Source of the DNA: an uncultured Gammaproteobacteria bacterium
GTDB lineage: Bacteria; Pseudomonadota; Gammaproteobacteria; Chromatiales; Chromatiaceae
Assembly: GCA_963824085.1 (NCBI GenBank)
Contig: CAWGNT010000026.1
Coordinates: 32,180-96,179 of the forward strand
DNA: 64,000 nucleotides
Direction of reading: 5' to 3'
Below, in pieces: positions 44,796 to 58,899 of the stretch. Under the pieces are notes generated by a model. That model saw only the letters and a list, made by a program, of their open reading frames with translations. It made no database searches and was not told where the DNA came from. The number at the start of each line of letters is the position of its first letter. The stretch's first letter is position 1. The position numbers and the translations under genes are program-made.

Positions 44796-44839
44796 CGACC
44801 TGGGGCAACGGATACAAGTAGTTGACGGGAGTAGACGGT

Positions 44840-44953
44840 ATGAAGGTCAGGGCTTCGGTAAAGCGGGTCTGTCGCCATTGCAAGGTCATACGCCGGAATG
44901 GGATTGTGCGGGTGATCTGTAAGGACCCAAAGCACAAGCAACGCCAGGGCTGA
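44840..44953 (+). CDS. rpmJ: 50S ribosomal protein L36
   Basis: Not in the ORF track (37 aa). Translated by hand: [37 protein letters not shown], with the zinc-ribbon Cys/His pattern; canonical position after secY. Confidence 0.93.
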
Positions 44954-45038
44954 CGCCTTTTCGTTGATTTTTCCTGTAGTTCTGGTATTCTGCGCTGTTT
45001 TCGCGCGCCGCGCGTGAACGGACTGGAGATCGTAGAGA

Positions 45039-45395
45039 ATGGCCCGTATTGCCGGTGTCAATATTCCCGATAGGAAGCATGCCGTCATCGCCTTGACGGC
45101 GATTTACGGCGTCGGTCGTACCCGCGCTGCCGAGATTTGCAACGGCGCTGGGGTGGCTCTGGATGCCAGGATTCGGGACCTCACGGAGGAGGAGGTCGAC
45201 AAGCTCCGCGCCGAAGTCGCCAAGCTTAGCGTCGAAGGCGATTTGCGCCGAGAGGTGTCGATGAACATCAAGCGTCTCATGGACCTCGGGTGCAACCGAG
45301 GCATCCGGCACCGGCGTGGGCTGCCGCTTCGCGGGCAGCGCACGCGGACCAACGCGCGCACCCGCAAGGGACCGCGGCGACCGATCAAGAGATAA
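45039..45395 (+). CDS. rpsM: 30S ribosomal protein S13
   Basis: [26 protein letters not shown]. Confidence 0.97.
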
Positions 45396-45432
45396 CAAGC
45401 GCTTGGGCTCAAGAGACCATTGGTAAGATTTG

Positions 45433-45819
45433 ATGGCAAAACCGACCCGTACTCGCAAGAAGGTAAAGAAGCAGGTGGCCGATGGTATTGCCCACGTCCA
45501 TGCTTCCTTCAATAACACCATCATTACCATCACGGACCGTCAAGGTAACGTGCTTGGCTGGGCGACGGCAGGGGGTTCCGGCTTCCGCGGCTCCAGGAAG
45601 AGCACTCCCTTTGCGGCGCAGGTGGCGGCGGATCGGGTTGGACAGGCCGTCAAGGAGTTCGGTCTTCGCAATCTCGATGTCAATGTGAAGGGCCCCGGAC
45701 CCGGACGGGAGTCGTCCGTACGGGCACTCAACAATGCGGGTTTCAAGATCACCAGCATCACCGACGTGACGCCCATACCCCATAACGGGTGTCGACCGCC
45801 CAAGAAGCGGCGCGTCTAA
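45433..45819 (+). CDS. rpsK: 30S ribosomal protein S11
   Basis: ORF 45430..45819. ATG at 45433 gives [35 protein letters not shown]. Confidence 0.96.
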
Positions 45820-45838
45820 GAATCGGGCAGGAATAGAC

Positions 45839-46459
45839 ATGGCAAGGTACACAGGTCCCACCTGCAAGCTGGCGCGGCGCGAGGGGACGGATCTCTCGCT
45901 CAAGAGCCGCGCCCGCTCGTTGGACACAAAGTGCAACTTGGAAAAGCTGCCGGGGCAGTCCGGTGATCGCCGCCGGCGATTGTCGGATTACGGGGGGCAG
46001 CTGCGGGAGAAACAGAAGGTCCGCCGCATCTACGGTGTGATGGAGAAGCAGTTCCGCAACTATTACCAGAAGGCTGCCGGTACCAAGGGCGCTACGGGCG
46101 AGAACCTGCTGCGGCTCCTGGAGCGGCGGCTCGACAACGTTGTTTACCGTATGGGGTTCGGCGCTACCCGTCCCGAGGCACGGCAGCTGGTCAGCCACAA
46201 GGGAATCCTGGTTAACGGGAAGACGGTCAATATTCCCTCTTATCTCGTCAGCGAAGAGGACCAGATCGAGGTCCGGGAAAAGGCCAAGAAGCAGGTCCGC
46301 GTGCAGAATGCCCTGGCCTTGGCCGAGCAATACGGCTTTGTCGACTGGATCGAAGTGGACACGAATGCCCTGAAGGGCGTTTTGAAGCGCATTCCCGACC
46401 GCTCGGACCTCCCGGCAGACATCAATGAATCGCTGATCGTGGAGTTGTACTCCAAGTAA
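45839..46459 (+). CDS. rpsD: 30S ribosomal protein S4
   Basis: [19 protein letters not shown]. Confidence 0.97.
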
Positions 46460-46483
46460 GAAGGGACGGAGAGGGTTTTTTGC

Positions 46484-47494
46484 ATGGCTGATGCTGTTAG
46501 CGACTTCCTCAAGCCGCGGATCGTCAAGGTAGAGCCGGTTGATGGGAAGCGCAGTCATGCTCGGGTTTCACTCGAGCCGCTCGAGCGCGGTTTCGGTCAC
46601 ACCCTGGGCAACGCACTGCGCCGTATCCTTCTGTCCTCCATGTCGGGCTGCGCGGTCACAGAGGTAGAGATCCAAGGGGTCCTGCATGAATACACCACCC
46701 TCGAGGGTGTGCAAGAGGATGTGCTGGAGATCCTGCTCAACCTTAAAGACCTCGCGATCTCGATGAAGGGTAAGGACGAGGCGACCTTTACCCTCTCCAA
46801 GAAGGGGCCTGGTCCGGTGCTGGCGGGGGATATCGCCCTCGACCATACGGCGGAGATCACCAATCCGGGGCTGGTAGTTGCCAACATCACCGGCGACACC
46901 ACGCTCAGCATGACACTCACCGTGCGGCGCGGCCGCGGCTATGAGCCCGCTACTGCGAGGGAAGACGATTCCGCGGACCGTCCGATCGGAAAGCTGCAGC
47001 TTGATGCGTCATTCAGCCCGATCCGGCGCGTCGCAATCGACGTCCAATCCGCCCGTGTCGAGCAGCGTACGGACCTGGATCGACTGGTCATCGACCTAGA
47101 GACCAATGGCACGATCGATCCGAAGGGCGCGATTCAGAAGGCCGCGGCTATCTTGCGAGATCAGCTCTCCAGCTTCGTTGCCCTAGAGGGGTCGGCGCCT
47201 AGTGAGCTTGGCGAGGAGTTGAGCTCCGTCCAGCCGCCGATCGACCCCATATTGTTGAGGCCGGTGGACGACTTGGAGCTGACTGTGCGTTCTGCCAACT
47301 GTCTGAAGGCCGAGAACATCTATCTGATCGGCGATCTCATTCAGCGCACCGAAGTGGAGCTGCTCAAGACGCCGAACCTTGGCAAGAAGTCCCTCACGGA
47401 GATCAAAGACGTGCTGGCGACACGAGGCCTCTCGCTGGGTATGCGTTTGGAGAACTGGCCGCCTGAGAACATCGACGAGCTTGCCGTTAAATAA
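46484..47494 (+). CDS. rpoA: DNA-directed RNA polymerase subunit alpha
   Basis: 336 aa containing [28 protein letters not shown] and the C-terminal-domain motif [12 protein letters not shown]. Confidence 0.97.
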
Positions 47495-47521: not shown

Positions 47522-47914
47522 ATGCGCCACCGCAAGACCGGAAGGCACCTGAACCGAACCAGCGCACATCGCGACGCTATGTTTCGCAACATGGCGTGCT
47601 CGCTTTTCCGCCACGAGCTCATCAGGACAACTGTTCCCAAGGCGAAGGAGCTGCGGCGGGTCGCCGAGCCTTTGATCACGATGGCGAAGACGGACTCCGT
47701 TCATAAGCGGAGGGTTGCCTTCTCCCGTCTGCGAGACAAAGAAGCGGTCGGCAAGCTCTTCGGCGAGCTCGGCCCTCGCTATGAGGCGCGTCCGGGCGGC
47801 TATCTGCGGATACTGAAATGTGGATTCCGAGCCGGAGATGCGGCGCCGATGGCCTATGTGGAGCTGGTAGATCGGCCCGCGCCTGCGGAGGGCGCGGCGA
47901 CAGACGGGGATTAG
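47522..47914 (+). CDS. rplQ: 50S ribosomal protein L17
   Basis: [24 protein letters not shown]. Confidence 0.97.
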
Positions 47915-47940
47915 TGTGCCGCCGCGTCTCAGCAACGACA

Positions 47941-47961
47941 CCGGGCTTTGCCCGGTTTCTT
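47941..47961 (+). terminator. rho-independent terminator of the alpha operon
   Basis: CCGGGC-TTT-GCCCGG followed by TTTCTT, 27 nt after the rplQ stop. Confidence 0.7.
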
Positions 47962-47976
47962 GTCTCAGGGATTAAC

Positions 47977-48724
47977 ATGGAGGGGGTGAGGGGCATAGCA
48001 CTCGTCACCGACTTCGGCGACGGGGGGCCCTATGTAGGACAGATGGAGCTGCGCCTCGCCGAGCTGGCTCCCGAAGTCCCGGTGACGCAGCTCGTATCGG
48101 ACCTGCCGCCCTTTCGTCCCGACCTTGCCGCCTACCTGTTGCCCGCCCTGGCGCGAGACATCGCGGCGCCGACCTTGTATCTGTGTGTCGTCGATCCTGG
48201 CGTAGGCGGCGAGCGCGCGGTGCTGGCCGTGGAAGCGGACGGCAACTGGTTCGTCGGGCCCGACAACGGTCTTCTAGCTATCGTCGTTCGTCGTGCGATA
48301 CGCTGTCAGGTGTTGCGGGTCGGTTGGCGTCCGGAGACCATGTCCGAGAGCTTTCACGGAAGGGATCTGTTCGCCCCGGTGGCGGCAATGCTGACCAAGG
48401 GAGAGTCGCTGGAAGCGCACGCTGTCGGCGACGACGACCATGGAGGGGAGCGGCTGGTCAGATGAGCTGTCGCGCATCGTCTACGCGGATCGCTACGGCA
48501 ACCTGATGACGGGCTTGCGCGCCGCACGCTTGGACTGTCACGCAGCCATTCAGGCCGGCGGGCGAATCCTCCGTTTTGCCCGTACCTTTTGCGAGGTCCC
48601 GAGTGGTGGTGCCTTCTGGTACGAGAACGCTTTCGGTTTGGTCGAGTTGGCGGTCAATCAGGGCCGCGCGGACCGCCTGCTCGGCGTGACAGCTGGCGAT
48701 CCGGTCACGGCCGTCGCCGCCTGA
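47977..48724 (+). pseudogene. SAM hydroxide adenosyltransferase-like (DUF62) gene split by a +1 frameshift
   Basis: N-terminal half is in ORF 47818..48465 (from ATG 47977: ALVTDFGDGGPYVGQM, VVDPGVGG, GPDNGLL, FHGRDLFAPVAA). C-terminal half is in ORF 48440..48724 (VYADRYGNLMTG, FWYENAFGLVELAVNQG). The second frame is open from 48395, so the shift lies in 48395-48463. Confidence 0.6.
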
Positions 48725-49419: not shown

Positions 49420-50700
49420 ATGACCTACAGCAAGTCCACGCATCGAGGTCGGCGCAGGTTCGGCGTCCTGGTTGTCTTGGTGTTCGGTGCTGTCTGCGGC
49501 GTATTGCTCGACCGTGTCTTTCTTGCGGGAGTTATCCCTGGCGCCCTGGTGCCGGCGGCCGCAATTGGCGAGTTCCGCCTCATGGCGCTGGCGTGGAATC
49601 TGATCGATGCGCGCTATGTCGACCGGCAGGCGATCAAGCCCGAGAAGATGACTTACGGTGCAATCAGTGGGATGGTGGACGCGCTGGGCGATACCGGCCA
49701 CAGTAGCTTTCTAACCCCGGAGATGGTTGGCCTCGCGCAGGACGTGTCGACTGGCAACTTCGCCGGGATCGGGGCGGAAATCGGGGTCAAGAAGGGGCAG
49801 GTGGTCATCGTCTCGCCGATCGACGGCACTCCGGCGAGCCGAGCGGGGCTGCGGCCGGGCGACGCCATCCTGAAGGTCGATGGCCAAACCGTCGTCAGCC
49901 TGTCTCTGGCCGATGTGGTGGGACGCATCCGCGGCCCCGTCGGCACGCCAGTAACGCTGCAGATCCTCTCGCCCAACGCCGAGCGACCGAAAGAGGTGAC
50001 GCTGGTGCGCGCTGAGATCCCTATCGATACGGTCCATTGGGCGATGATCCCTGGCACCCGCCAGGCCGACGTGCGCATCAGTAGCTTCTCCAAAGGCACC
50101 ACCAGTGCGTTGTCCACTGCGCTGGCTCAGGCAAAGCAGGCCGGTACGACCGGCGTCGTCCTGGATCTTCGCGATGATCCAGGCGGACTGCTCGAGGAGG
50201 CTATCGGAGTGACCAGCCTGCTTGTCGCTCAAGGGAATGTGCTTGAGGACCGGGACCGCGCCGGTAAAATCACCCCTGTTCCCGTCGAGCCTGACCGGCA
50301 GCTGTGGAGAGGTCCAGTGGCCGTGCTGATCAATGGCGGCACGGCGAGCGCCGCGGAGATCGTCGCCGGTGCACTGCGTGACAATCGCAAGTCGGCGCTG
50401 ATCGGTGAGAAGACCTTCGGTACCGGCACTGTGCTCCAGCAATTCCCGCTGCCCGACGGATCGGCGCTGCTGCTTGCGGTGGGCGAATGGTTGACCCCGG
50501 CGGGAGAGAGCTTCTGGCACAAAGGCCTCGAGCCGACCATCAAGGTGGCCCTGGCCGAAGATACCCTGCCGCTGACGCCGGTGGCGATGCGCGATCTGAC
50601 CCCCGGGGAGCTGCGCAAGAGCCACGACGGCCAGCTGCTGGCGGCAACAGCGTGGCTTGACAAGCAGACGTCGTCAGGCAGACAACCGATCGCTCCGTAG
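49420..50700 (+). CDS. S41-family carboxy-terminal processing peptidase with PDZ domain
   Basis: ORF 49375..50700 with an N-terminal TM segment, a PDZ-like region (GIGAEIGVKKGQVVIVSPIDGTPASRAGLRPGDAILKVDG) and the catalytic-Ser region LINGGTASAAEIVAGAL. Start uncertain (TTG 49375 vs ATG 49420). Confidence 0.85.
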   Translation: MTYSKSTHRGRRRFGVLVVLVFGAVCGVLLDRVFLAGVIPGALVPAAAIGEFRLMALAWNLIDARYVDRQAIKPEKMTYGAISGMVDALGDTGHSSFLTPEMVGLAQDVSTGNFAGIGAEIGVKKGQVVIVSPIDGTPASRAGLRPGDAILKVDGQTVVSLSLADVVGRIRGPVGTPVTLQILSPNAERPKEVTLVRAEIPIDTVHWAMIPGTRQADVRISSFSKGTTSALSTALAQAKQAGTTGVVLDLRDDPGGLLEEAIGVTSLLVAQGNVLEDRDRAGKITPVPVEPDRQLWRGPVAVLINGGTASAAEIVAGALRDNRKSALIGEKTFGTGTVLQQFPLPDGSALLLAVGEWLTPAGESFWHKGLEPTIKVALAEDTLPLTPVAMRDLTPGELRKSHDGQLLAATAWLDKQTSSGRQPIAP

Positions 50701-50712
50701 GCAATAGGCGAG

Positions 50713-52311
50713 CTACCGGTAGTCGCCGGCCTTAAGGCGGTACGTCCTGAGCTTCATGTGCACGGCACGGGGCGTGATCCCCATTGCCCTGGCCACGGCG
50801 CTGACGTTGCCGCGAAAGCGTGTCAGCGCGTCTTCGATCACCTTGGCTTCAACGTCGCGCGCCGCGTCCCTCCTTATCTGCCGCAAGGGAATTGATTGGT
50901 CGCTGCCGGGTGGATCGCTTCCCTGTGGGGCCTCGACCGAGAGGTCATCGATAACCTGCCCCTGACAGAACAAGAAGGCGTGCTCCAGCACATTCTCCAG
51001 CTCTCGGACGTTTCCTGGCCAATGGTAGCCGAGCACTTTCCTCCAAGCGCGCTCGCCCAGCGCTTTCGCCGGTTGGTGGTATCGTTCCGAGAGGCGCCGC
51101 AGGACGTGAGTCACCAGGGCGGACAGGTCACTGCGGCGTTCCCGGAGCGGGGGGATATGTATGGGTACGACGTTTACCCGATAGTAGAGGTCCGTGCGGA
51201 AGGCCCCGGAGGCGACGCGATCCTTGATATCCTGATTTGACGCGGCAATGATTCGGACGTCCGTTGTCAGGGGCTGTCTTCCGCCCACCCTCTCGAACTC
51301 ACCCTCCTGCAGCACGCGTAAGAGCCTGGCCTGCGCGGATACGGGCAAAGAGTCGATCTCATCAAGAAACAGAGTGCCGCCGTTCGCACGTTCGAAGAAC
51401 CCATGGTGCACGGTATGGGCATCGGTAAATGCGCCTTTCTCGTGCCCGAACAGCGCGCTCTCGATGAGACTCTCGGGAATCGCCCCGCAGTTGACGGCAA
51501 CGAGATCTCGATCCGCCCGGAGACTCAGAGCATGAATTGCCCGCGCAATGACCTCCTTCCCCACGCCCGTCTCGCCAGTGACCAAGACGGTCGCTGGAGT
51601 TGGGGCCACGATCGCGACGGCCTCGAGGGCGGCCTTCATTGCTGCAGATTCGGCGACGACTGTTGGCCTCTCGCGCCGAGCGGCCGCACCCCGTTGCCGA
51701 GGCGGACACCAAGCGCTTGCGAGCTTCGATTCCACGCGGGCCGTTATCTCCGCCGAGGCGGATCTTGAGATGATGGTGTCCCCGGTGTACTGGTATTCGT
51801 CGCCGTGCTTGTCCTTCGCCATGTCTCGGTCCGTGTACACGCAGACGTCACACGACCCGTCGCCGGTCGCAATCCGCTTGCGCAGCTCGACCTTGGCGTA
51901 GCCGAAGTTCCGGGCCGCGATCGCACCGAACACGCTCGCCGTCATGCGGCACAGCTCGGGGGCTTGACTGACTGTCTCCCCGAACGGGCAGCGTTCATTG
52001 CGGACCCGGATGACGCCAGGGTCGCTCGGCTCCCGCGAGAATTCGCCGCCGATACGATTCTTGATGTTGAGTATGACCGCAGCGTATTCCTCGGGCGTGA
52101 TCTCGCCGGAGAGGCCGAGCTGCTGTCGTGCGACCGCCTCCAGGCAGTGGCTGGAGGCTAGCCCCAGGTGCTCGATATAGGTCCTCTTTTGCTGGGCACT
52201 CTTGAAGCAGTGCTGCTCGGCGGCCCTGATGCTGTGGGCGATGAAGGACTGGAGAAAGGAAACCTGATCAAGGCGGAGCGACGCATCGATATCCATCGAT
52301 TGGACTTCCAT
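50713..52311 (-). CDS. sigma-54-dependent transcriptional activator (NtrC-family EBP) with a Cys-containing V4R-like sensory domain
   Basis: ORF 50713..52467. Walker A GETGVGKE, Walker B GTLFLDEI, sigma-54 contact loop present as GAFTDA, C-terminal Fis-type HTH ([20 protein letters not shown]). N-terminal domain has RCPFGE...PELCRM...[10 protein letters not shown]. Start chosen at ATG 52311. Confidence 0.85.
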
Positions 52312-52580
52312 TGGTAGCGCGGTCTCTTCAACAAGCTTAGCCGAAGCTGAGCGGTACCGAATCCCAGCTATGGCTGTTTGCGGATGGTCGGGTGCGGGTA
52401 GGCGGCCGGGCGCCAACGAGCCTCCACGGACGGAGTCGCGGTGAGTTCCGCAGCTGCCGCCTGGCATCGCAGGGGAGCGTTGGCGCAGGTCGCCTACCCG
52501 AAAAGGCGGGTGATCCTGGTGCCGTATGCGCTACCGTCGGAGATCAGGGCATTCAGTATGATGTGGCTTCCAGCGGCCCA

Positions 52581-52808
52581 TCAGTGGCAACAGGGGCAGT
52601 CCTTGCCATGGCCGTTTTGCTCCGGTTGGAGCGAACGGACGGCCTCTTCACGTCCCCTGGCCATACTTCCGTGGACAGCCGGGGCCGATAGAATTAACCG
52701 ATTCGTTTCGGCACCGCAAGCTGGACATGCCGGCCTGTCGGCATGTAGGGGATGCCAGAGCTCGAAGCGGTTGTTGCACGCGGGGCAGGCGTAGTTGTAC
52801 GTAGGCAT
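52581..52808 (-). CDS. FmdB-family zinc-ribbon protein
   Basis: 75 aa, MPTYNYACPACNNRFE...CPACGAETNRLILSAP; two CxxC pairs plus a C-terminal CPCCH. Confidence 0.7.
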   Translation of the reverse strand: MPTYNYACPACNNRFELWHPLHADRPACPACGAETNRLILSAPAVHGSMARGREEAVRSLQPEQNGHGKDCPCCH

Positions 52809-52920
52809 TCGGTTTCACCTGGCTTTGAGATTGGGGTCGAAGACGGAGGGTGTCGCACGAGGCGATAGGCCCCGCATGCGGGGCGGAGCGCGCATATACA
52901 CGGCTCATATCTCGTTTTCG

Positions 52921-53066
52921 GTTCTCCGCGCTAAGGGGCCCGGAAGCTCGGTCGGGGGTGACGGCGGCACGGAGGATGCCATAAAGCCTACGAGGATGTA
53001 GTTACGGCGTTCCTCGGCGGGCGCAACCCGGCCCCGGAAAAGCGAAAGACCCAAGTACGAAACGTA
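52921..53066 (-). repeat. palindromic repeat element, copy D
   Basis: 52-nt core 52969-53020 is homologous to the reverse complement of the copy A/B cores. Right arm and flank TCCTCGGCGGGCGCAACCCGGCC-CCGGAAAAGCGAAAG; left arm degenerate. Confidence 0.6.
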
Positions 53067-53151
53067 TAACCTCCAAGAGGGTTCAGTGGAAACCGCCCCT
53101 GGATGAGTCGTGCCGGACCCACACCAGGGGCAATCGTCCTGCCTCTAAGCG

Positions 53152-53805
53152 CTATTCCCAACGGGGAGGCTGTTGACCGCTCACTCCGAACTGCGTGGCG
53201 AGGACGTCTGTCCGCGCCCGCTTCTCCGGGTCTTGCGTGGGCGGGCGCAGGCGGCGTGTCTCCACCTCCCAGACCCAGCCGCTGATGGTGACATCCTTTG
53301 GTATCAGGGGATGGTTTCTGAAGGTCTCGATGGTCTTCATGCACGCCGTATCGACGTCATCCATCATGCCGATCCATTTGGCGAACGCACCCTGGTCGAG
53401 CCGGAGCTCGGGTAACGTCGGATCCAGGGTTAGGTTGTCGATGTCGACGCCCTTGTCACGCAGCACCTTTTCTAGATCGGCGGCGTTCGCAGACAACATG
53501 CCGCACTGGGTATGCTGGACGATGACAATCTCCTTCGTGCCGAAGAAGTTGCAGGTCAGCATCGCCGAACGGATCGCATCGTCGGTGACTATGCCGCCCG
53601 CATTACGAAAACAATGCGCATCGCCGCCGCCCACCGGGGTGTCGACGCGAATACCGAGGGCCTCATCGACGGGCAAGCGCTCGTCCATGCAGGCGAGGAC
53701 CCACAAGCGGCGATTGTTGGGTCCCTCAGGTCCGTAACGGCGTCGAGTCGCCCAGTGGTCAAATTGTGTAGTTCTCGCCTCCAGTTCTTGCTTCAGCGTG
53801 GCCAT
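53152..53805 (-). CDS. beta-class carbonic anhydrase family protein, clade-D type (candidate CS2/COS hydrolase)
   Basis: 217 aa with zinc ligand motifs CxDxR (ACMDERL) and HxxC (HTQCG), plus RNAGGIVTDDAIRS, NFFGTKEI and RNHPLIPKDV. SD GAGGAGG upstream. Confidence 0.8.
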   Translation of the reverse strand: MATLKQELEARTTQFDHWATRRRYGPEGPNNRRLWVLACMDERLPVDEALGIRVDTPVGGGDAHCFRNAGGIVTDDAIRSAMLTCNFFGTKEIVIVQHTQCGMLSANAADLEKVLRDKGVDIDNLTLDPTLPELRLDQGAFAKWIGMMDDVDTACMKTIETFRNHPLIPKDVTISGWVWEVETRRLRPPTQDPEKRARTDVLATQFGVSGQQPPRWE

Positions 53806-53879
53806 TCTCCAAACCTCCTCGGGGATCGTGATGTGTCAGGTTCGCGTTCTGTGTTCGGATGCCGAACATCAGCATCTAA

Positions 53880-53895
53880 AGCACGCACTGTGCCA
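53880..53895 (-). promoter_or_regulatory. sigma-54 (-24/-12) promoter candidate for the hydrolase gene
   Basis: Minus-strand sequence TGGCACAGTGCGTGCT against consensus TGGCAC-N5-TTGCW. GG and GC are at the correct 10-nt spacing. It lies 75-90 nt upstream of the ATG, with an A/T-rich tract just upstream. Confidence 0.6.
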
Positions 53896-53952
53896 AAATA
53901 AAACACCTTGAAAAATCGGTAACTTAGGAAGGTGCGAAGCCTGTCCGTGAAG

Positions 53953-53962
53953 CGTTCGAACG
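53953..53962. repeat. 10-bp perfect palindrome CGTTCGAACG (candidate activator site)
   Basis: Read directly; centred about 60 bp upstream of the -24 element. Confidence 0.3.
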
Positions 53963-54084
53963 ACTTTGGCGCATGAGATCTCTGCTAACAGGTTGAAAAA
54001 CGCCAGAAATCGTGATGACGCGGAAACTTCGCAGTGTGAAGAAGAGCTTCGCAGGCTCTTGGACGGACGAAGAATGAGCTAATA

Positions 54085-54256
54085 CCGTTTCGATCTGGGC
54101 TCTTTCGTCTCCAGTGGACTGGCCGCTCCGACCGGGGGACGCCGTAAATACGTCCATGCAGGCTTGACGGCAGCCTTCCTGTTGCCGATACCCCTGGCGG
54201 GACCGGCCAGTCCCCTCTGGTCCGGAAGCGCAAAAGTCGGGCGAGCTCGGAATAGG
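54085..54256 (+). repeat. palindromic repeat element, copy B
   Basis: Arms 54116-54138 / 54191-54213 give 19 Watson-Crick pairs plus 1 GU out of 23. 52-nt core 54139-54190. Both outer flanks present. Confidence 0.75.
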
Positions 54257-54266
54257 ACATCGACAT

Positions 54267-54283
54267 AGTACAAAATTTGTACT
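54267..54283. repeat. 17-bp palindrome AGTACAAA-A-TTTGTACT (candidate operator/UAS)
   Basis: Read directly; immediately right of repeat copy B in the divergent promoter region. Confidence 0.3.
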
Positions 54284-55009
54284 GGCAGGCAGGTGCGCGA
54301 GACCGGTGTTGACGCGGCGCAGCGAGCAGGCGGGGAATCAGACCACAGCTGTTGGAATATGAGGCGGGTGCACGCGTGTCCATGAAGCGCTGATCGATGG
54401 TAGGTGCCAACGCTTCGCGCGGCGCGATGGCATGGAGGTCGTCGGCGTTTGCCATTCGCATGCAGACCACCCAGCGGAGCCATCGGAGCCGGACCGAAAT
54501 TGCGTTGAGGATGGGTTGACGGACGCCAGATCATCGACAGATCGTCGATCGACCCGGGAGAAATGGATTTCTTGGTCTATATTAATTTCGTGGCGTGGGG
54601 TGTGGAATAAGAAGCACGTGTGAAACGCCACACCTGGGGGAAAACGAGAAGATCCATTGCCGACAGACAGGTCCCGTAGGCATCGGGATCGGCGGCGGGC
54701 CCGCGGCAATCCCTCCCCGGGACGAGGAGACCCGGGAACAGTCGGCACGTCGCCGAACACTTTGCGCTCAAGAAGCGAGCAGCGAGCAACGCGATCGTCC
54801 TCTGGCGGTGGCCGCCCAAGGCCCTAATTTCGTTGTGCACGCTCGACGTGCTTGCGGATTGGTCAGTGCTTGCTAAACCGTCGGGAACTGCGCTTTGGGC
54901 GCTGTCTGCAAGGCATCTTGCGCCGTCTGAGGGTGTTTGATCGACGTCCCGACGGTCCTGCAATCTCGGCATGCCACTCACCTGCCGGTGAGGCCGGGAG
55001 AAGGGGCAA

Positions 55010-55025
55010 TGGTGCCGTCGTTGCC
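55010..55025 (+). promoter_or_regulatory. weaker sigma-54 promoter candidate for the exporter operon
   Basis: TGGTGCCGTCGTTGCC has GG and TTGC at consensus spacing, but the -24 box is TGGTGC. It lies 60 nt upstream of ATG 55085; AGGAGA SD at 55071. Confidence 0.4.
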
Positions 55026-55084
55026 CTGTTCCGTGGCATCAAAGGGGAAATCGAAGACCTAACCAACCGAAGGAGAATCGACGT

Positions 55085-56479
55085 ATGGCAAAAAACGTCA
55101 TGGTCGCTGAGGACGAAGAGGCCCTCCAAAGCATGGGGTGGCGGGAGATCTGGTTGAAGGAGGACTGGTGGGCGATCTGGCTCGGCCTGGGTATCGTGAT
55201 CGTGGCCTATCTGTTCTTCGCTAACGGCGCCTCGATCAAGTGGATCGCGATCACGCCGGGGAAATGGTCGACGTTTGATCAGGTGCTCGGCGACTTCAGG
55301 TCGCACATCATCCAATATATCGCCCAGTTCATCCTGTGGCTCGTCGTGTTCAGCGTGAGCATGCGCATCATGGGCCACAAGATGAGCGAGTTCATACCCG
55401 CGTTTGTGTTTATCTACTTGGTCTCGATCCTGATCTTCATGGTCGGGGCCTGGGACCAGGCGCATCACTACAACCTGGAGCCGCCGTTGGTCGCCTTGCT
55501 GCTGGGTATGGTGATCTCCAACCTCATTGGCCTGCCGCGCTGGATGGATACCGGGTTCCGTGTCGAGTACTACATCAAGGTAGGCATCGTGCTGCTGGGT
55601 GCCACCCTGCCGTTCACCCTGGTGATCTGGGCAGGCCCGGTGGCGATCTTCCAGGCATCGATCGTCTCGATCACCACTTTCCTCGTTATCTACTTCGTGG
55701 GGCGCCGCTTGGATCTCGATCGGCGCCTTTGCGCGACGCTCGGCGCCGGTGGAGCGGTCTGCGGAGTGTCCGGTGCCATCGCCATCGCCGGTGCCGTGGG
55801 CGCCAAGAAGGAACATGCACCGATCGCCATCACCATGGTGATCGGCTGGGCGATCGTGATGATCTTCTTCCTACCTCTGGTCTCACGTACGTTGCAGTTG
55901 TCGACCGGCGTCGCCGGTGCCTGGATCGGCACCTCGGAGTTCGCCGATGCAGCCGGTTTCGCCGCCGCTCAGGCCTACGGCAACCTGGCCGGAAACGTGC
56001 CGGGGATCAGCGGCACGGCCGATCAGTCGGTGTGGGCTTTCACCCTGATGAAGGTGGTAGGCCGCGACATCTGGATCGGGATCTGGGCCTTCGTGCTGGC
56101 CATCATCGCGACCACTCGCTGGGAGACCGAGACGGGCAGCAAGCCGCAGGCGGCAGAGATCTGGTGGCGCTTCCCGAAGTTCGTCATCGGTTTCGCGCTG
56201 GCTTCGATTCTGGTCACCTGGGTCACCAGCGGCTACTCCTTCGAGGACTTCAACAAGATCGTCAAGCCGGAGTTCGTGGGGCCGGTGAAGGCATTGCGCA
56301 CCTGGGCCTTCATCTTCTGCTTCTTTTCCATCGGGCTGACCACCCGCTTCCGCGAGCTGGCCAGTGCCACCGGTAAGCCATTTTGGGCGTTCACCGTGGG
56401 TGTGGGATTCAACGTGGCATTGGGCTTCATACTTTCGGCGTTGGTGTTCGGCACGTACTGGACAAACCTCGCCCATTGA
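55085..56479 (+). CDS. YeiH/UPF0324-family membrane protein (putative sulfate exporter family)
   Basis: 464 aa polytopic protein. Family-like motif LGAGGAVCGVSGAIAIAGAV (compare E. coli YeiH IGAGSSICGAAAVLA) and GTSEFADAAGFAAAQ. Confidence 0.7.
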   Translation: MAKNVMVAEDEEALQSMGWREIWLKEDWWAIWLGLGIVIVAYLFFANGASIKWIAITPGKWSTFDQVLGDFRSHIIQYIAQFILWLVVFSVSMRIMGHKMSEFIPAFVFIYLVSILIFMVGAWDQAHHYNLEPPLVALLLGMVISNLIGLPRWMDTGFRVEYYIKVGIVLLGATLPFTLVIWAGPVAIFQASIVSITTFLVIYFVGRRLDLDRRLCATLGAGGAVCGVSGAIAIAGAVGAKKEHAPIAITMVIGWAIVMIFFLPLVSRTLQLSTGVAGAWIGTSEFADAAGFAAAQAYGNLAGNVPGISGTADQSVWAFTLMKVVGRDIWIGIWAFVLAIIATTRWETETGSKPQAAEIWWRFPKFVIGFALASILVTWVTSGYSFEDFNKIVKPEFVGPVKALRTWAFIFCFFSIGLTTRFRELASATGKPFWAFTVGVGFNVALGFILSALVFGTYWTNLAH

Positions 56480-56549
56480 TGGAGTCGACGGAGGTAGCGC
56501 CGGCTCCGCCGGCGCTACCCCAGTTTCCGAAACGAGTGAGACAAATGGG

Positions 56550-56756
56550 ATGGACAAGCTCGCGCACACCTGCCTCTCCTGCCGTCATTTCCGCAACACG
56601 CCGCGCTACCTGGAGTCGGTCTACAAGGGACTGTCGAGCCTCGGCTCCGCCTACGCGTCGGTGCGCAAAGACGACGGAATCTGCCTAGAACGGGACCTGT
56701 ATTTGTCGGCATCGGCATCCTGCGAACGCTATGCGGCACGCAAACCGGCGCAGTGA
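56550..56756 (+). CDS. hypothetical 68-aa four-cysteine protein
   Basis: Internal ATG of ORF 56364..56756: MDKLAHTCLSCRHFRNTPRYLESVYKGLSSLGSAYASVRKDDGICLERDLYLSASASCERY. Starts 70 nt after the exporter stop. Confidence 0.45.
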   Translation: MDKLAHTCLSCRHFRNTPRYLESVYKGLSSLGSAYASVRKDDGICLERDLYLSASASCERYAARKPAQ

Positions 56757-56793
56757 GCCGGCCCTAGCCGGACCAAGCAAACGCCATTGGTTT

Positions 56794-56816
56794 GGTGACT
56801 AGTCTCAGGTGACTAG
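56794..56816 (+). repeat. tandem direct repeat GGTGACTAG-N5-GGTGACTAG
   Basis: Read directly in a locally low-GC patch. Function unknown. Confidence 0.5.
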
Positions 56817-56849
56817 AGTCGTGGCTCAGCAGGAACGTCCAGTAGGCGA

Positions 56850-56950
56850 GTCGGCGGGACGGTCGGCGCGGGCGCCGTCGAGCCTACATGGACGTATTCA
56901 CAAGGAACATCTGCCCTTGGGGCATTGCCGCCCACCGAAAGCCGGACGCC
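56850..56950 (-). repeat. palindromic repeat element, degenerate copy E
   Basis: GGTCGGCGCGGGCGCCGTCGAGCCTACATGGACGTATTCAC resembles the core of copies B, C and D. Arms poorly preserved. Confidence 0.4.
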
Positions 56951-57145
56951 TCGTCTGGTGATGGGTGGTCCCGCCCAGCCTGGCCCCATCGAACGTCACC
57001 TCCAACAAGTGCCCTTTCGTATTGCGCTTGCCTAATGCGCAATGCCGACTAGATTTCTCAGGTATGAGGGAGACGTAACGGAGTCGATTGGGACATCGTC
57101 GCTAGAGCTTATTCGTTCTTCACTTTGGGTCCATTGGAGGCCATC

Positions 57146-57952
57146 ATGAGCATCACACGCAGGTTGTTTGTCGGGGCAGCCGTCAGCGGCGCCGCGGTTG
57201 TGACGAGTGTTGCTGCTGGTGTTCTTACATCCCGCGGGGTTAGAGCAGCGCTCCCGGCCGGGACCTTTTTTGCCGCATCCCCGGCCGAGGCCATCGGTGC
57301 AGTTCTTGGTACTGACCAGAGCACGCCGGACCCGGCCGTACAGCTGGGCATTACAGACACGGTAGAGATGGCGGACATGGTGCCTCTATCCGTGACGACG
57401 ACGTTGGACAACGTGGAATCGATCACCATCGTCGCCGATAAGAACCCCAACCCCATCATTGCATACTACAGATTGGACCCGCAGTTGCAGCCGTACGTTG
57501 CGACGCGCGTGCGCTTGGCCGAGTCGGGCGACGTTCACGCGTTGGTCAAGTCTGGTGGAATTGTCCATCGAGCCACCAAGAACGTGAAAGTTGCCATTAG
57601 TGGCTGCGGCGACCCAGAGCCTGGGCCAAGCGATATCGTGATGTCCAATCGCTTCTTGATTAGGACGGCGAAGGATGGCGACGGCGTCGTAGTCCGTGCG
57701 CTGATCCATCACCCGATGACGCCGCCACGCAAGGACCCGGCGCGAGGGCTTCCGGTGTCCGGCCAGTTCATCCAAGAAGTCAAGGCGCAGGCCAACGGCA
57801 AGACCGTGCTAAACAGCGACTGGAGCGCGGGCGTGTCTCAGGATCCCTATCTGTCGTTCAAGATGCGGCACGCGGCGCAAGGCGACATCATCCGCATCAC
57901 TTGGACTGACAATGCGGGACACAGCGCCTCATCGGAGGTGACGGTCAGCTAG
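57146..57952 (+). CDS. soxYZ: fused SoxY-SoxZ sulfur-carrier protein with Tat signal
   Basis: ORF 57125..57952. ATG at 57146 lies 5 nt after GGAGG. Twin-arginine signal SITRRLFVGAA. The SoxY carrier motif VKVAISGCG is followed by linker DPEPGPSD, then a SoxZ-like domain (VVVRALIHHPMTPPRKD...ITWTDNAGHSASSEVTVS). Confidence 0.8.
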   Translation: MSITRRLFVGAAVSGAAVVTSVAAGVLTSRGVRAALPAGTFFAASPAEAIGAVLGTDQSTPDPAVQLGITDTVEMADMVPLSVTTTLDNVESITIVADKNPNPIIAYYRLDPQLQPYVATRVRLAESGDVHALVKSGGIVHRATKNVKVAISGCGDPEPGPSDIVMSNRFLIRTAKDGDGVVVRALIHHPMTPPRKDPARGLPVSGQFIQEVKAQANGKTVLNSDWSAGVSQDPYLSFKMRHAAQGDIIRITWTDNAGHSASSEVTVS

Positions 57953-58089: not shown

Positions 58090-58736
58090 CGCATTGACTT
58101 CTCCAACCAGTGAAAAACCAGGTGCTCTTTGCGTTCTTAAAGGGCCAAATGCTTTTCTTTGGTTCATCGGTTTGGCGACCAGGTTGGCCAGGCGATCAGG
58201 AAGGCCAGCCAGCAGGTGCCGAAGCTGGTTGGCACCGAGCAGGACTCGGAGATCGTTTTCGCCTCGCGCGGCACCGGATCCGACTCGACTGCCATTTTGT
58301 CGGCGCTGAAGGCCCAGCCCGAGCGCAAGGAGATCATCGCCACAGTCGTAGAGCCTCCGGCCGTGCCGAACTGCTTTGTCACGGGTGATCCGGGCCACCG
58401 GTTGCCGAACACCAGCAACGTCGCTTTCGAGTACATCGAGGGCGAGGCTACCTTATTGCTGCTGAACAAGAGAGGGAGTGCCACCTCGTCCGGCTTAGTC
58501 CGCACCTCGGGTTCGCCGGAGCCTTCGCACGTCATGCGTGCTATGGGAGCTCCGTTGACCGTCGCCCACGGGACGATCCGTTTCTCCCTGTCCCGCTACA
58601 ACTGGATGGAGGAGATCGAAAGGGTCATCTCGGCCGTGCCGCCGCTGTTGTGCAACTGCGTAAGCTCTCGCCGTATTGGAGCCAGAATGGACCGCTGGAG
58701 AACCGGCAGACGGCGTTTGTGCCGGCCTATGCATGA
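58090..58736 (+). pseudogene. nifS: decayed nifS-type cysteine desulfurase relic
   Basis: Pieces in three frames align with NifS as I remember it: FGDQVG...SDSTAILSALKAQPERKEIIATVVEPPAV joins directly to FVTGDPGHRLPNTSNVAFEYIEGEA...EPSHVMRAMG...IRFSLSRY. This removes about 240 codons, including the PLP lysine. The catalytic loop reads SSGLVRTSGS (Cys lost). The C-terminal QLRKLSPYWSQNGP is in another frame. Confidence 0.8.
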
Positions 58737-58899
58737 CGGGTTTGAAGGTCAACGGGTATCCCTCCGACCGGACCAGGAGACGTGACGGCGCTCGGCGCCA
58801 AACAGCCTCTCTGGCCCCTTGAATGATGAGGAACCAGGCTTGACTACGGCCTGAGATGAGGGATGAAGAGCGTCCGAGGGGATCATGCGCCACTATTGC

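What the first reader, a model, noticed from the sequence alone, without database searches (positions are those of the whole stretch)
53152..53805. Beta-CA-fold enzyme that looks like a CS2/COS hydrolase rather than a carbonic anhydrase
Seen directly: zinc ligands CxDxR (CMDER) and HxxC (HTQC). The protein is 217 aa, which I would expect to be long for a minimal beta-CA. It also has the blocks NNRRLWVLACMDER, FRNAGGIVTDDAIRSA, NFFGTKEIV, LDPTLPELR and RNHPLIPKDVTISGWVWEVETRRLR. From memory these blocks closely resemble the archaeal Acidianus CS2 hydrolase and its Acidithiobacillus homologues. In those enzymes, terminal extensions and a Phe-lined tunnel convert a CA fold into a CS2-specific enzyme. 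My recollection of those sequences cannot be checked here and may be biased by the query itself.
Basis: partly seen in the sequence, partly recalled or inferred. Interest (0 to 1): 0.7.

Follow-up and report, generated by a model that had tools for sequence, protein, structure and literature searches.

The report
Inducible CS2/COS hydrolase gene cassette
This gene, annotated as a carbonic anhydrase in a purple sulfur bacterium, most likely encodes an enzyme that splits the sulfur gases CS2 and COS into H2S and CO2, and it belongs to a self-regulated three-gene module also found in nitrifiers, methanotrophs and sulfur oxidisers.

Summary
Positions 53152-53805 hold a 217-aa minus-strand ORF with all the quoted motifs.

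- The Acidianus CS2 hydrolase (3TEN) is the best PDB match: 181 bits and 49-54% identity. Generic beta-CAs score at most 84 bits and COSase 69 bits.
- A confident AlphaFold model (pLDDT 90.6) matches 3TEN over 198 columns, terminal arms included (TM 0.77/0.83). Minimal beta-CAs match only in the core.
- The Zn ligands, the Asp-Arg dyad and the diagnostic Phe-Phe motif are present. Acidianus Phe96 is Ala here, but Phe at that position is confined to Sulfolobales.

The new result is the context:
- The gene heads a three-gene cassette conserved in most of 80 genomes. The parts are a sigma-54 promoter, the hydrolase, an FmdB-type Zn-ribbon protein with a His/Cys tail, and a sigma-54 activator with a MetOD1 (V4R/H-NOX-like, three-Cys) sensor.
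- Hosts include Chromatiaceae, Nitrosomonas, methanotrophs and Thiobacillus relatives.
- The hydrolase is far more conserved than its partners (81% against 52-54% median identity) even though synonymous sites have diverged heavily.
- Contexts of outgroup relatives are linked to sulfur, not to carbon concentration.

Activity, oligomeric state and inducer remain untested. I could not verify from the sequence that the characterised A. thiooxidans S1p enzyme belongs to this clade.

The parts
53152..53805 (-). CS2/COS-hydrolase-like beta-CA-fold protein, 217 aa. Zn ligands are C39 (53689-53691), H98 (53512-53514) and C101 (53503-53505). The D41/R43 dyad and the Phe-Phe motif F87-F88 (53542-53547) are present. 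Clade-specific insertions are P26-E27 and T56-G61 (TPVGGG). CGMLSANA carries Ala106 where Acidianus has Phe96. The C-terminal tail is longer than in Acidianus and conserved.
53881..53895 (-). Sigma-54 (-24/-12) promoter TGGCACagtgcGTGC. Its -24 end (the T of TGGCAC) lies 90 nt upstream of the ATG.
   Evidence: An equivalent element scoring >=9/11 is found upstream of the orthologue in 62 of 77 loci, against 3.6% of random 300-nt windows.
53814..53820 (-). Ribosome-binding site GAGGAGG
   Evidence: read directly
54037..54051 (-). Candidate activator-binding site (UAS) CGAAGctcttCTTCA, a one-mismatch copy of the palindrome TGAAG-N5-CTTCA, 156 nt upstream of the -24 element.
   Evidence: the palindrome occurs upstream of the sigma-54 promoter in 34 of 58 loci against 1.8% background, often as a pair 20 bp apart. 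This is an inferred site, not a shown one.
52581..52808 (-). FmdB-family Zn-ribbon protein, 75 aa, with CxxC...CxxC and a conserved C-terminal His/Cys tail (H-x-H-G-P-G-C-x-C; here GHGKDCPCCH). It is probably a metal-handling or accessory partner.
   Evidence: Pfam Zn_ribbon_8 at 51.5 bits and TIGR02605 at 54.4 bits. It lies immediately downstream of the hydrolase in 73-77 of 80 loci. In Mycobacterium a fused YHS metal-binding domain takes its place.
50713..52296 (-). Sigma-54-dependent activator (bEBP), about 527 aa if it starts at Met58 of the 584-aa ORF that runs up to 52467. Its parts are a MetOD1 sensor (about 51682-52296), an AAA+ sigma-54 interaction domain with a GAFTDA loop (about 51157-51657) and a Fis-type HTH (about 50740-50859).
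   Evidence: Present next to the hydrolase in 65-67 of 80 loci, either downstream or divergent.

Best explanation
The gene most likely encodes a zinc-dependent hydrolase of the CS2-hydrolase branch of clade-D beta-carbonic anhydrases. I infer the following from the characterised Acidianus enzyme; none of it is shown here. A Zn-bound hydroxide (ligands C39/H98/C101, oriented by the D41-R43 dyad) attacks CS2 to give COS + H2S, and then COS to give CO2 + H2S. The long N- and C-terminal arms build a ring oligomer that closes the normal CA entrance. Access is then left only through a hydrophobic tunnel that includes the Phe87-Phe88 pair, which favours apolar CS2/COS over CO2/bicarbonate chemistry.

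Comparative genomics shows that the gene is the first gene of an autonomous, inducible cassette. A sigma-54 promoter drives the hydrolase and probably also the Zn-ribbon gene that follows it. The promoter is activated by the adjacent bEBP, whose N-terminal MetOD1 domain belongs to the V4R/H-NOX-like group of small-ligand sensors and carries three invariant Cys.

I infer that this sensor detects the substrate (CS2 or COS) or a close derivative. I also infer that the Zn-ribbon protein, with its His/Cys tail, supports metal loading of an enzyme made in large amounts. In the Chromatiaceae host the released H2S would feed photosynthetic sulfur oxidation. In nitrifier and methanotroph hosts the same module would remove a known inhibitor of their copper monooxygenases.
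For: Enzyme identity:
- 3TEN/3TEO is the top PDB hit at E 1.7e-52 and 181 bits. The next hit scores 84 bits and COSase scores 69 bits.
- BLASTP to the full Acidianus sequence gives 49% identity over 194 residues, E 9e-66.
- The AF2 model has pLDDT 90.6. Foldseek gives 3TEN TMq 0.77 / TMt 0.83 over 198 columns, against at most 0.58 for the CAs and 0.52 for COSase.
- The Zn ligands, the dyad and FF are conserved. FF is LL or QL in COSase and the CAs. Published genome surveys use FF as the CS2-hydrolase signature (PMC6382920).
- The tunnel rationale comes from PMC8217695.

Cassette:
- The Zn-ribbon gene and the bEBP are the only neighbours conserved across 80 loci from unrelated genomes.
- A sigma-54 promoter is present in 62 of 77 loci against 3.6% background.
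- A palindromic candidate UAS is present in 34 of 58 loci against 1.8% background.
- MetOD1 is related to the HNOB, V4R and ATC-hydrolase domains and shares a three-Cys cluster with the PoxR/MopR phenol sensors (PMC5847659). Three invariant Cys are seen here.
- The same sensor domain is coupled to outgroup relatives of the enzyme through two different output modules: a sigma-54 AAA+ module (P0233) and a PucR-type HTH (P0188).

Sulfur-linked, not carbon-linked, contexts in the wider family:
- An ssu-like sulfonate-utilisation operon in Gloeothece.
- Rrf2 plus a PALP cysteine-synthase-type gene in Sulfolobales.
- A pyridine-nucleotide-disulfide reductase fused to a rhodanese domain, near the gene.

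Metal link for the second gene:
- A YHS domain is fused to the hydrolase in Mycobacterium.
- ZIP or NicO transporters sit inside or next to the cassette.

Constraint on the enzyme:
- Median identity is 81% for the hydrolase, 52% for the Zn-ribbon protein and 54% for the bEBP.
- 45-63% of codons that encode the same amino acid differ between copies. This fits an enzyme whose surface is largely buried in oligomer interfaces.

CS2 as an inhibitor:
- CS2 inhibits AMO (Hyman et al. 1990, cited in PMC7170481) and soil methane oxidation (Borjesson 2001, cited in PMC9003020).
Against: - No activity, oligomer or inducer data exist for this protein, and nothing here measures them.
- Identity to the only characterised enzyme I could align is about 50%. 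Many uncharacterised bacterial proteins of 195-210 aa are equally close to it.
- Acidianus Phe96, Phe136 and Tyr139 are Ala106, Ile145 and Met148 here, so the tunnel, if present, has a different lining. Which residues line the Acidianus tunnel is from my memory, because the papers are not held.
- Most hosts are autotrophs, for which an ordinary CA would also be useful.
- The link to the characterised A. thiooxidans S1p enzyme rests on my recollection of an abstract (insertions PD at 26-27 and TPAGGG at 56-61) and could not be verified.
- The model of the sensor domain was poor (pLDDT 53), and its fold matches are weak (best E about 0.02).
- In this window the hydrolase and the Zn-ribbon gene are 343 nt apart, so their co-transcription here is uncertain.
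Confidence: 0.68

Rival explanations
1. It is an ordinary beta-carbonic anhydrase that supplies CO2 or bicarbonate to autotrophic metabolism, and the sigma-54 regulator responds to inorganic-carbon supply.
For: It is a Pfam Pro_CA member with a complete CA active site. Every database source names it carbonic anhydrase. Hosts are mostly CO2-fixing chemolithotrophs and phototrophs.
Against: It is about 100 bits closer to CS2 hydrolase than to any CA, and that enzyme does not hydrate CO2 (PMC8217695; PMC8209446). It carries the arms and the FF motif that CAs lack. The cassette is never next to RuBisCO, carboxysome or bicarbonate-transporter genes in 80 loci. Contexts in the wider family are sulfur-linked. 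A V4R/H-NOX-type ligand sensor is an odd choice for sensing bicarbonate.
Confidence: 0.12
2. It hydrolyses a different small linear heterocumulene or related compound, for example cyanate or isocyanic acid, isothiocyanates or thiocyanic acid, or cyanamide or carbodiimide. CS2/COS activity would then be incidental.
For: The tunnel-position residues differ from Acidianus (Ala106, Ile145, Met148). The partner gene belongs to the FmdB family, named after a formamidase operon. Hosts include ammonia oxidisers and Thiohalobacter thiocyanaticus, which could profit from N- or S-containing C1 compounds. MetOD1 also resembles ATC hydrolase, a C-S-cleaving enzyme (PMC5847659).
Against: No characterised relative has such an activity. 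The closest characterised enzymes act on CS2 and COS. No cyanase, nitrilase or amidase gene is linked to the cassette in 80 loci.
Confidence: 0.13
3. It is essentially a COS hydrolase used to scavenge sulfur or energy from ubiquitous trace COS, with little or no physiological CS2 turnover.
For: COS is the obligatory second substrate of CS2 hydrolases (PMC8217695) and is far more widespread in nature than CS2. A cyanobacterial relative sits in a sulfur-scavenging ssu-like operon. A Mycobacterium plasmid carries a clade member, and COS-degrading mycobacteria are known (PMC8209446).
Against: It is much closer to CS2 hydrolase than to the dedicated COSase (181 against 69 bits), and it has FF where COSase has LL. 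This reading overlaps with the best explanation more than it competes with it.
Confidence: 0.25

Closest known systems
Acidianus sp. A1-3 CS2 hydrolase (PDB 3TEN/3TEO; Smeulders et al. 2011)
   Same: Beta-CA fold with Cys-His-Cys zinc site and Asp-Arg dyad. Phe-Phe motif. Long N-terminal helix and C-terminal arm. The inserted segment LDPxLPxxR...W is shared. Identity is 49-54%, TM 0.77-0.83 over nearly the full length.
   Different: The query has a 2-aa insertion (P26-E27) and a 6-aa insertion (TPVGGG), lacks the 5-aa LGVKS loop, and has a longer, conserved C-terminal tail. Phe96, Phe136 and Tyr139 become Ala106, Ile145 and Met148. The host is a mesophilic bacterium, not a thermoacidophilic archaeon. 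The Sulfolobales gene context is Rrf2 plus PALP, with no sigma-54 cassette. Catenane formation here is unknown.
Acidithiobacillus thiooxidans CS2 hydrolases, strains S1p and G8 (Smeulders et al. 2013, J Bacteriol 195:4046)
   Same: From my memory of the abstract (the paper is not held), the S1p enzyme differs from Acidianus by insertions at 26-27 [PD] and 56-61 [TPAGGG] and by a longer C-terminal tail, and it forms octamers only. The query clade has insertions at exactly those positions, and several 217-aa members carry PD and TPAGGG literally. An Acidithiobacillus sp. homologue is 79% identical to the query (P0105).
   Different: The published sequences could not be retrieved, so membership in the same clade is a well-fitting lead and not a test. 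The query comes from a neutrophilic purple sulfur bacterium. As far as I could find, no sigma-54, MetOD1 or Zn-ribbon cassette has been reported for the Acidithiobacillus genes.
Thiobacillus thioparus THI115 carbonyl sulfide hydrolase (COSase; PDB 3VQJ/3VRK)
   Same: A clade-D beta-CA-fold enzyme with terminal extensions that hydrolyses COS to H2S and has little CA activity (PMC12035519 abstract).
   Different: Only 26-28% identity, 69 bits and TM about 0.52. It has Leu-Leu where the query has Phe-Phe, and CMDAR against CMDER.
Phenol- and aromatic-sensing sigma-54 activators with V4R sensor domains (MopR, PoxR, DmpR)
   Same: Architecture of small-ligand sensor, AAA+ sigma-54 module and HTH. 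The sensor carries a three-Cys cluster (PMC5847659). It is encoded next to the catabolic genes it controls.
   Different: The sensor here is the MetOD1 variant (48 bits). It has no detectable sequence match in the PDB and no NCBIfam equivalog. The ligand is unknown.

Membership tests
CS2 hydrolase branch of clade-D beta-CAs | Beta-CA fold with Cys-His-Cys zinc ligands and Asp-Arg dyad | tested here: met
   C39/H98/C101 and D41/R43 align to Acidianus C35/H88/C91 and D37/R39. These columns are invariant in 133 sequences. The fold is confirmed.
CS2 hydrolase branch of clade-D beta-CAs | Phe-Phe motif (Acidianus F77-F78) lining the substrate tunnel | tested here: met
   F87-F88 are present. FF is found in 17/17 of the query clade and 17/17 Sulfolobales. 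COSase and the CAs have LL or QL. The motif is used as a signature in PMC6382920.
CS2 hydrolase branch of clade-D beta-CAs | Long N- and C-terminal arms relative to minimal clade-D CAs | tested here: met
   The protein is 217 aa against 164-172 aa. The model has an N-terminal helix at residues 4-27 and an ordered tail. The alignment with 3TEN covers 198 columns, against about 160 for the CAs.
CS2 hydrolase branch of clade-D beta-CAs | Third aromatic residue, Acidianus Phe96 (its tunnel role is from my memory) | tested here: not met
   The query has Ala106, as do 17/17 of its clade. Phe is found only in the 17 Sulfolobales sequences, and 83 of 99 other family members have Ala. It therefore looks like a Sulfolobales trait and not a family-defining one.
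CS2 hydrolase branch of clade-D beta-CAs | Closer in sequence and structure to a characterised CS2 hydrolase than to CAs or COSase | tested here: met
   181 bits against at most 84 (CAs) and 69 (COSase). TMq 0.77 against at most 0.58.
CS2 hydrolase branch of clade-D beta-CAs | Octameric ring or hexadecameric catenane that blocks the CA entrance and leaves one hydrophobic tunnel | not testable with these tools
   Only monomer prediction is available and no coordinates are exposed. Needs a multimer model, native MS or cryo-EM.
CS2 hydrolase branch of clade-D beta-CAs | Hydrolyses CS2 and COS to H2S and does not hydrate CO2 | not testable with these tools
   Biochemical assay required.
S1p-type bacterial CS2 hydrolase subclade | Insertions at positions 26-27 and 56-61 plus a longer C-terminal tail (definition from my memory of the Smeulders 2013 abstract) | tested here: inconclusive
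   The query has PE at 26-27 and TPVGGG at 56-61. Clade members P0056, P0067 and P0274 have PD and TPAGGG at exactly those positions. The reference sequence and the paper were not obtainable.
COSase (T. thioparus type) | Sequence membership in the COSase subgroup | tested here: not met
   69 bits, 26-28% identity, aligned over the core only, and LL instead of FF.
Canonical beta-carbonic anhydrase (Pfam PF00484) | Match to Pro_CA above the gathering score | tested here: met
   35.2 bits against a 25.7 cut-off. This shows superfamily membership only. The NCBIfam CA subfamily match is far below its cut-off (31.6 against 221).
Sigma-54-dependent regulon | -24/-12 promoter with GG and GC at the right spacing, plus a cognate bEBP with a GAFTGA-type loop | tested here: met
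   TGGCAC-N5-GTGC at 53881-53895, conserved in 62 of 77 loci. The bEBP has Sigma54_activat at 229 bits and a GAFTDA loop. Actual sigma-54 dependence was not tested.

The most novel reading that the evidence does not exclude
The cassette may be a dedicated gas-sensing detoxification and harvesting module. The MetOD1 domain of the bEBP would bind CS2 or COS directly, as a new ligand class for the V4R/H-NOX-like fold, and switch on a very strongly conserved CS2/COS hydrolase. In ammonia oxidisers and methanotrophs the main benefit would be protection of the copper monooxygenases AMO and pMMO from CS2, a classical nitrification and methane-oxidation inhibitor. In sulfur oxidisers the benefit would be H2S as an electron donor. 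If so, CS2 hydrolases are not a rarity of acidophiles but a widespread trait, at least sometimes mobile (one copy is IS-flanked on a plasmid), that affects COS/CS2 budgets and the efficacy of CS2-releasing nitrification inhibitors.
Probability: 0.3. Interest if true: 0.75.

Novelty: new member of a known kind. Interest (0 to 1): 0.5.

Why it matters
CS2 hydrolases have been characterised only from thermoacidophilic archaea and acidophilic Acidithiobacillus. Here a close, extremely conserved relative is mislabelled 'carbonic anhydrase' in purple sulfur bacteria, Nitrosomonas, methanotrophs, Thiobacillus relatives and even a Mycobacterium plasmid. The scan of one genome per species returned 192 relatives, of which I examined the best 80, and the gene travels with its own sensor-regulator.

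If the activity is confirmed, four things follow:
- Many 'CA' annotations should be corrected.
- A bacterial sink for COS and CS2 would be added to sulfur-gas budgets, which currently attribute microbial COS uptake to CAs and to COSase-type clade-D enzymes.
- There would be a candidate transcription factor that senses CS2 or COS.
- Nitrifiers and methanotrophs would have a possible resistance mechanism against CS2-type inhibitors.

All of these can be tested directly with cultured strains that carry the cassette, such as Thiocapsa roseopersicina DSM 217, Methylobacter luteus, Nitrosomonas ureae Nm13 and Sulfuriferula multivorans.

Tried and rejected
- Primary papers: Smeulders 2011 and 2013 are not in the library by DOI or by PMC id. 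A full-text search for 'TPAGGG' found nothing relevant.
- A source name 'CS2 hydrolase' for an Acidithiobacillus member: cluster look-up and a third homology search seeded with P0105 returned only 'carbonic anhydrase' labels.
- Window neighbours as functional context: the YeiH-like gene, the SoxYZ fusion and the two ORFs downstream of the bEBP are not conserved next to the gene elsewhere. An apparent ABC-ATPase cluster in 8 loci was generic ABC homology at varying positions.
The single-sequence model was poor at pLDDT 53. Its Foldseek hits (Bet3/TRAPP, H-NOX; best E about 0.02) are only a hint. Sequence and profile searches of the PDB found nothing.
- Other scans: no Rfam family in 50000-57500. 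Sigma-70 promoter and terminator scans were at chance level. There is no GC anomaly marking an island.
- Recent horizontal transfer as the reason for about 80% identity across phyla: rejected, because synonymous sites have diverged heavily, although one plasmid copy is flanked by IS elements.
- Papers linking CS2 hydrolase with sigma-54, Nitrosomonas, methanotrophs or Chromatiaceae: none found in the library.
Full report
OBSERVATION

Positions 53152-53805 are a complete ORF on the minus strand: ATG at 53805, stop included, 217 aa. A GAGGAGG ribosome-binding site precedes it. The identical protein is in NCBI as MGA7981251.1, 'MAG: carbonic anhydrase [Chromatiaceae bacterium]', so the window comes from a purple sulfur bacterium MAG.

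WHAT THE PROTEIN IS

Sequence:
- A phmmer search of all PDB sequences puts the Acidianus A1-3 CS2 hydrolase (3TEN/3TEO) first, at E 1.7e-52 and 181 bits, covering residues 9-191.
- The best generic clade-D beta-CAs score 60-84 bits, and the T. thioparus COSase scores 69 bits over the core only.
- Identity to Acidianus is 95 of 175 aligned residues, or 54%. BLASTP against the full sequence P0121 gives 49% over 194 residues.
- Pfam sees only a weak Pro_CA match at 35 bits. No NCBIfam model reaches its cut-off.

Structure:
- An AlphaFold2 model built on a 133-sequence alignment is confident, with pLDDT 90.6 and pTM 0.86.
- Foldseek against the PDB again ranks 3TEN and 3TEO first, with TMq 0.77-0.78 and TMt 0.83 over 198-204 columns.
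- Minimal beta-CAs reach TMq 0.53-0.58 over about 160 columns, and COSase about 0.5.
- The extra length is therefore not disordered padding. It corresponds structurally to the arms of the CS2 hydrolase.

Residue level:
- The zinc ligands (C39, H98, C101) and the Asp-Arg dyad (D41, R43) are invariant.
- The Phe-Phe pair (F87-F88, equivalent to Acidianus F77-F78) is present in all 17 sampled members of the query clade and all 17 Sulfolobales sequences. It is nearly invariant across the wider family.
- Rv1284, COSase and CafC have Leu-Leu at that position, and 3LAS has Gln-Leu.
- A published genome survey uses this 'characteristic Phe-Phe motif' to call putative CS2 hydrolases (PMC6382920).
- The published rationale is that a long hydrophobic tunnel makes a beta-CA-like active site specific for CS2/COS and unable to hydrate CO2 (summarised in PMC8217695, and PMC8209446).
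- One difference matters. Acidianus Phe96 is Ala106 in the query. Phe at that position is confined to Sulfolobales, while the query clade and 83 of 99 other relatives have Ala.
- Acidianus Phe136 and Tyr139 are Ile145 and Met148 here. They remain hydrophobic but are no longer aromatic.

THE CLADE

The query belongs to a monophyletic group with a long stem branch in an NJ tree. The group is defined by:
- a 2-aa insertion at positions 26-27;
- a 6-aa insertion [TS]P[VA]GGG at positions 56-61;
- an invariant CGMLSANA motif;
- Met148;
- a longer, conserved C-terminal tail.

From memory, the abstract of Smeulders et al. 2013 describes exactly such insertions in the octameric A. thiooxidans S1p CS2 hydrolase: 26-27 [PD], 56-61 [TPAGGG], and a longer C-terminal tail. 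Several 217-aa clade members carry PD and TPAGGG at precisely those positions. An Acidithiobacillus sp. protein is 79% identical to the query. I could not obtain the paper or the sequences, so this remains a strong lead and not a test.

The wider 'long' family is large: 2126 proteins at E<=1e-10 in a search seeded with Acidianus. Many uncharacterised bacterial members of 195-210 aa are as close to Acidianus as the query is.

DISTRIBUTION AND CONSTRAINT

- A scan of one genome per species found 192 relatives. The best 80 are all 79-91% identical.
- By my tally of the record titles of those 80, the hosts are: 21 Nitrosomonas or Nitrosomonadaceae; 11 Chromatiaceae; 8 methanotrophs (Methylobacter, Methylomonas, Methyloglobulus); 8 Sulfuriferula, Sulfuricella or Thiobacillus; Thiohalobacter thiocyanaticus; 2 Nitrospirales; and assorted MAGs.
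- This is not recent transfer. Nucleotide identity is only 70-80%, and 45-63% of codons that encode the same amino acid differ.
- The hydrolase (median 81% identity) is far more constrained than its two partner proteins (52% and 54%) in the same loci. This is what one would expect if most of its surface is buried in a ring oligomer. That reading is an inference.

THE CASSETTE

A tblastn search with the window's neighbours, and an independent de novo clustering of all ORFs in the 80 loci, agree that only three gene families are conserved:
- the hydrolase, in 80 loci;
- a small FmdB-type Zn-ribbon protein immediately downstream, in 73-77 loci;
- a sigma-54 activator, in 65-67 loci, with many of the remainder cut by contig ends.

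The activator lies downstream on the same strand in sulfur oxidisers and most methanotrophs. It is divergent and upstream in Nitrosomonas. Flanking genes are otherwise unrelated.

In the window the series on the minus strand is:
- candidate UAS at 54051-54037;
- sigma-54 promoter TGGCACagtgcGTGC at 53895-53881;
- hydrolase at 53805-53152;
- Zn-ribbon gene at 52808-52581;
- bEBP at 52296 (or 52467) to 50713.

A -24/-12 element scoring at least 9 of 11 lies within 300 nt upstream of the hydrolase gene in 62 of 77 loci, against 3.6% of random windows from the same loci. A palindrome TGAAG-N5-CTTCA lies upstream of that promoter in 34 of 58 loci against 1.8% background. In Nitrosomonas it occurs as a pair 20 bp apart.

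The regulator:
- The bEBP has a full Sigma54_activat domain (229 bits) with a GAFTDA loop, and a Fis-type HTH.
- Its N-terminal 200 residues match Pfam MetOD1 at 48 bits, and three Cys are invariant.
- Galperin et al. relate MetOD1 to the H-NOX, V4R and ATC-hydrolase domains. They note the three-Cys cluster it shares with the phenol sensors PoxR and MopR (PMC5847659).
- Alignment with homologues indicates the true start is Met58 of the 584-aa ORF.

WIDER CONTEXT

- The NJ sister of the query clade (P0233, about 60% identity) has the same cassette plus a NicO metal transporter.
- Another relative (P0188) is next to a regulator that combines MetOD1 with a PucR-type HTH instead of the sigma-54 module. 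The same sensor with a different output is good evidence that MetOD1 senses something tied to this enzyme.
- In Gloeothece the homologue sits inside an ssu-like operon: SsuA-like binding proteins, an SsuD-like monooxygenase, ABC components and an FMN reductase.
- In a Sulfolobales-type locus it directly follows Rrf2 and a PALP (cysteine-synthase-type) gene.
- In another lineage it lies near peroxiredoxins and a disulfide reductase fused to a rhodanese domain.
- None of these contexts is a carbon-concentrating one.
- On a 349-kb Methylobacter plasmid the cassette is bracketed by IS3 and IS1 transposases. That copy also contains a ZIP zinc transporter and a cupin.
- On a Mycobacterium paragordonae plasmid the clade-type hydrolase (71% identity) is fused to a C-terminal YHS metal-binding domain. 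There is no Zn-ribbon gene and no bEBP, which fits the absence of sigma-54 in Actinobacteria (established knowledge).
- ZIP genes occur in or near three further loci.
- Together with its conserved H-x-H-G-P-G-C-x-C tail, this points to a metal-handling role for the Zn-ribbon protein. This is an inference.

MECHANISM PROPOSED

Shown:
- the fold, the active-site residues, the arms and the FF motif;
- the conserved sigma-54 promoter, the bEBP with a ligand-sensor domain, and the conserved partner gene.

Inferred:
- a zinc-hydroxide attack converts CS2 to COS + H2S and COS to CO2 + H2S inside an oligomer whose arms close the CA entrance;
- the MetOD1 sensor detects CS2, COS or a derivative and activates transcription;
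- the Zn-ribbon protein helps metallate the enzyme.

In the Chromatiaceae host the H2S would be an electron donor. In nitrifiers and methanotrophs, removing CS2 would protect AMO and pMMO. CS2 inhibits AMO (Hyman et al. 1990, cited in PMC7170481) and soil methane oxidation (Borjesson 2001, cited in PMC9003020).

RIVALS

- An ordinary CA for autotrophy is possible, because the hosts are mostly CO2 fixers and all annotations say CA. The sequence and structure ranking, the FF motif, the lack of any link to carbon-fixation genes and the sulfur-linked contexts argue against it.
- A different heterocumulene substrate cannot be excluded, because the tunnel positions differ from Acidianus.
- A COS-only physiological role overlaps with the main explanation.

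NOVELTY AND VERDICT

The enzyme is best filed as a new member of the known CS2-hydrolase kind, probably of the S1p-type subclade, mislabelled as carbonic anhydrase. Two things appear to be unreported in the literature I could search: the conserved cassette (sigma-54 promoter, MetOD1 activator, Zn-ribbon protein) and its prevalence in nitrifiers, methanotrophs and phototrophic sulfur bacteria. Confidence that the protein is a CS2/COS-type hydrolase and not a working CA is about 0.7. The roles of the sensor and of the Zn-ribbon protein are hypotheses.

Noticed in passing
window 57125-57952 (+): A single ORF carries both SoxY and SoxZ domains (a fusion; 93 and 88 bits). It lies on the strand opposite to the cassette, after a YeiH-like membrane protein (Cons_hypoth698, 55085-56479). 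Neither gene is conserved next to the hydrolase in other genomes.
   Followed up: partly
window 53806-55084: About 1.2 kb upstream of the hydrolase has no convincing ORF and no Rfam match. It holds the sigma-54 promoter and the candidate UAS, but most of it is unexplained.
   Followed up: partly
window 52809-53151 (-): The gap between the hydrolase and the Zn-ribbon gene is 343 nt here, against roughly 25-110 nt in most other loci. It contains a weak second sigma-54-like element, TGGCATcctccGTGC, at 52967-52981. That match has two mismatches and is at chance level on its own.
   Followed up: no
window 50713-52467 (-): The mechanical ORF of the sigma-54 activator is 584 aa. Alignment with 64 homologues (median 527 aa) indicates the real start is Met58 (window 52296).
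   Followed up: yes
L082:6001-6843 (Mycobacterium paragordonae plasmid NZ_CP025547.1): A clade-type hydrolase is fused to a C-terminal YHS/TRASH metal-binding domain (280 aa). There is no Zn-ribbon gene and no sigma-54 regulator nearby.
   Followed up: yes
L081:3068-10378 (Methylobacter sp. YRD-M1 plasmid NZ_CP091425.1): The cassette, with an added ZIP transporter and cupin, is bracketed by IS3 and IS1 transposases, with an IscB RNA-guided endonuclease gene nearby. The arrangement looks like a composite transposon.
   Followed up: partly
L091:4630-5895: A regulator combining MetOD1 with GGDEF_2 and a PucR-type HTH_30 lies next to a 196-aa relative of the hydrolase. This is the same sensor domain with a different transcriptional output.
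   Followed up: partly
L092:685-6885 (Gloeothece verrucosa CP002198.1): A 208-aa relative is embedded in an ssu-like sulfonate-utilisation operon: two SsuA-like binding proteins, a luciferase-like monooxygenase, ABC permease and ATPase, and an FMN reductase.
   Followed up: partly
L039 (MAG labelled Planctomycetaceae) and L054 (Rhodopirellula MAG): The promoter and the divergent bEBP in L039 are of the Nitrosomonas type, and the promoter is nearly identical in sequence to those. The short contig may be mis-binned, so it may not be evidence for the cassette in Planctomycetes.
   Followed up: no
window 58159-58785 (+): A 208-aa ORF whose best match covers only the N-terminal part of the class-V aminotransferase (cysteine desulfurase-type) profile: positions 34-101 of 371 in the better of two matched stretches. 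It may be a truncated gene or a mis-called frame.
   Followed up: no
window 43443-47494 (+): secY (43443-44795) and rpoA (46484-47494), the end of the ribosomal-protein gene cluster, lie just beyond the cassette. A SAM hydroxide adenosyltransferase-like gene follows at 47818-48465.
   Followed up: no
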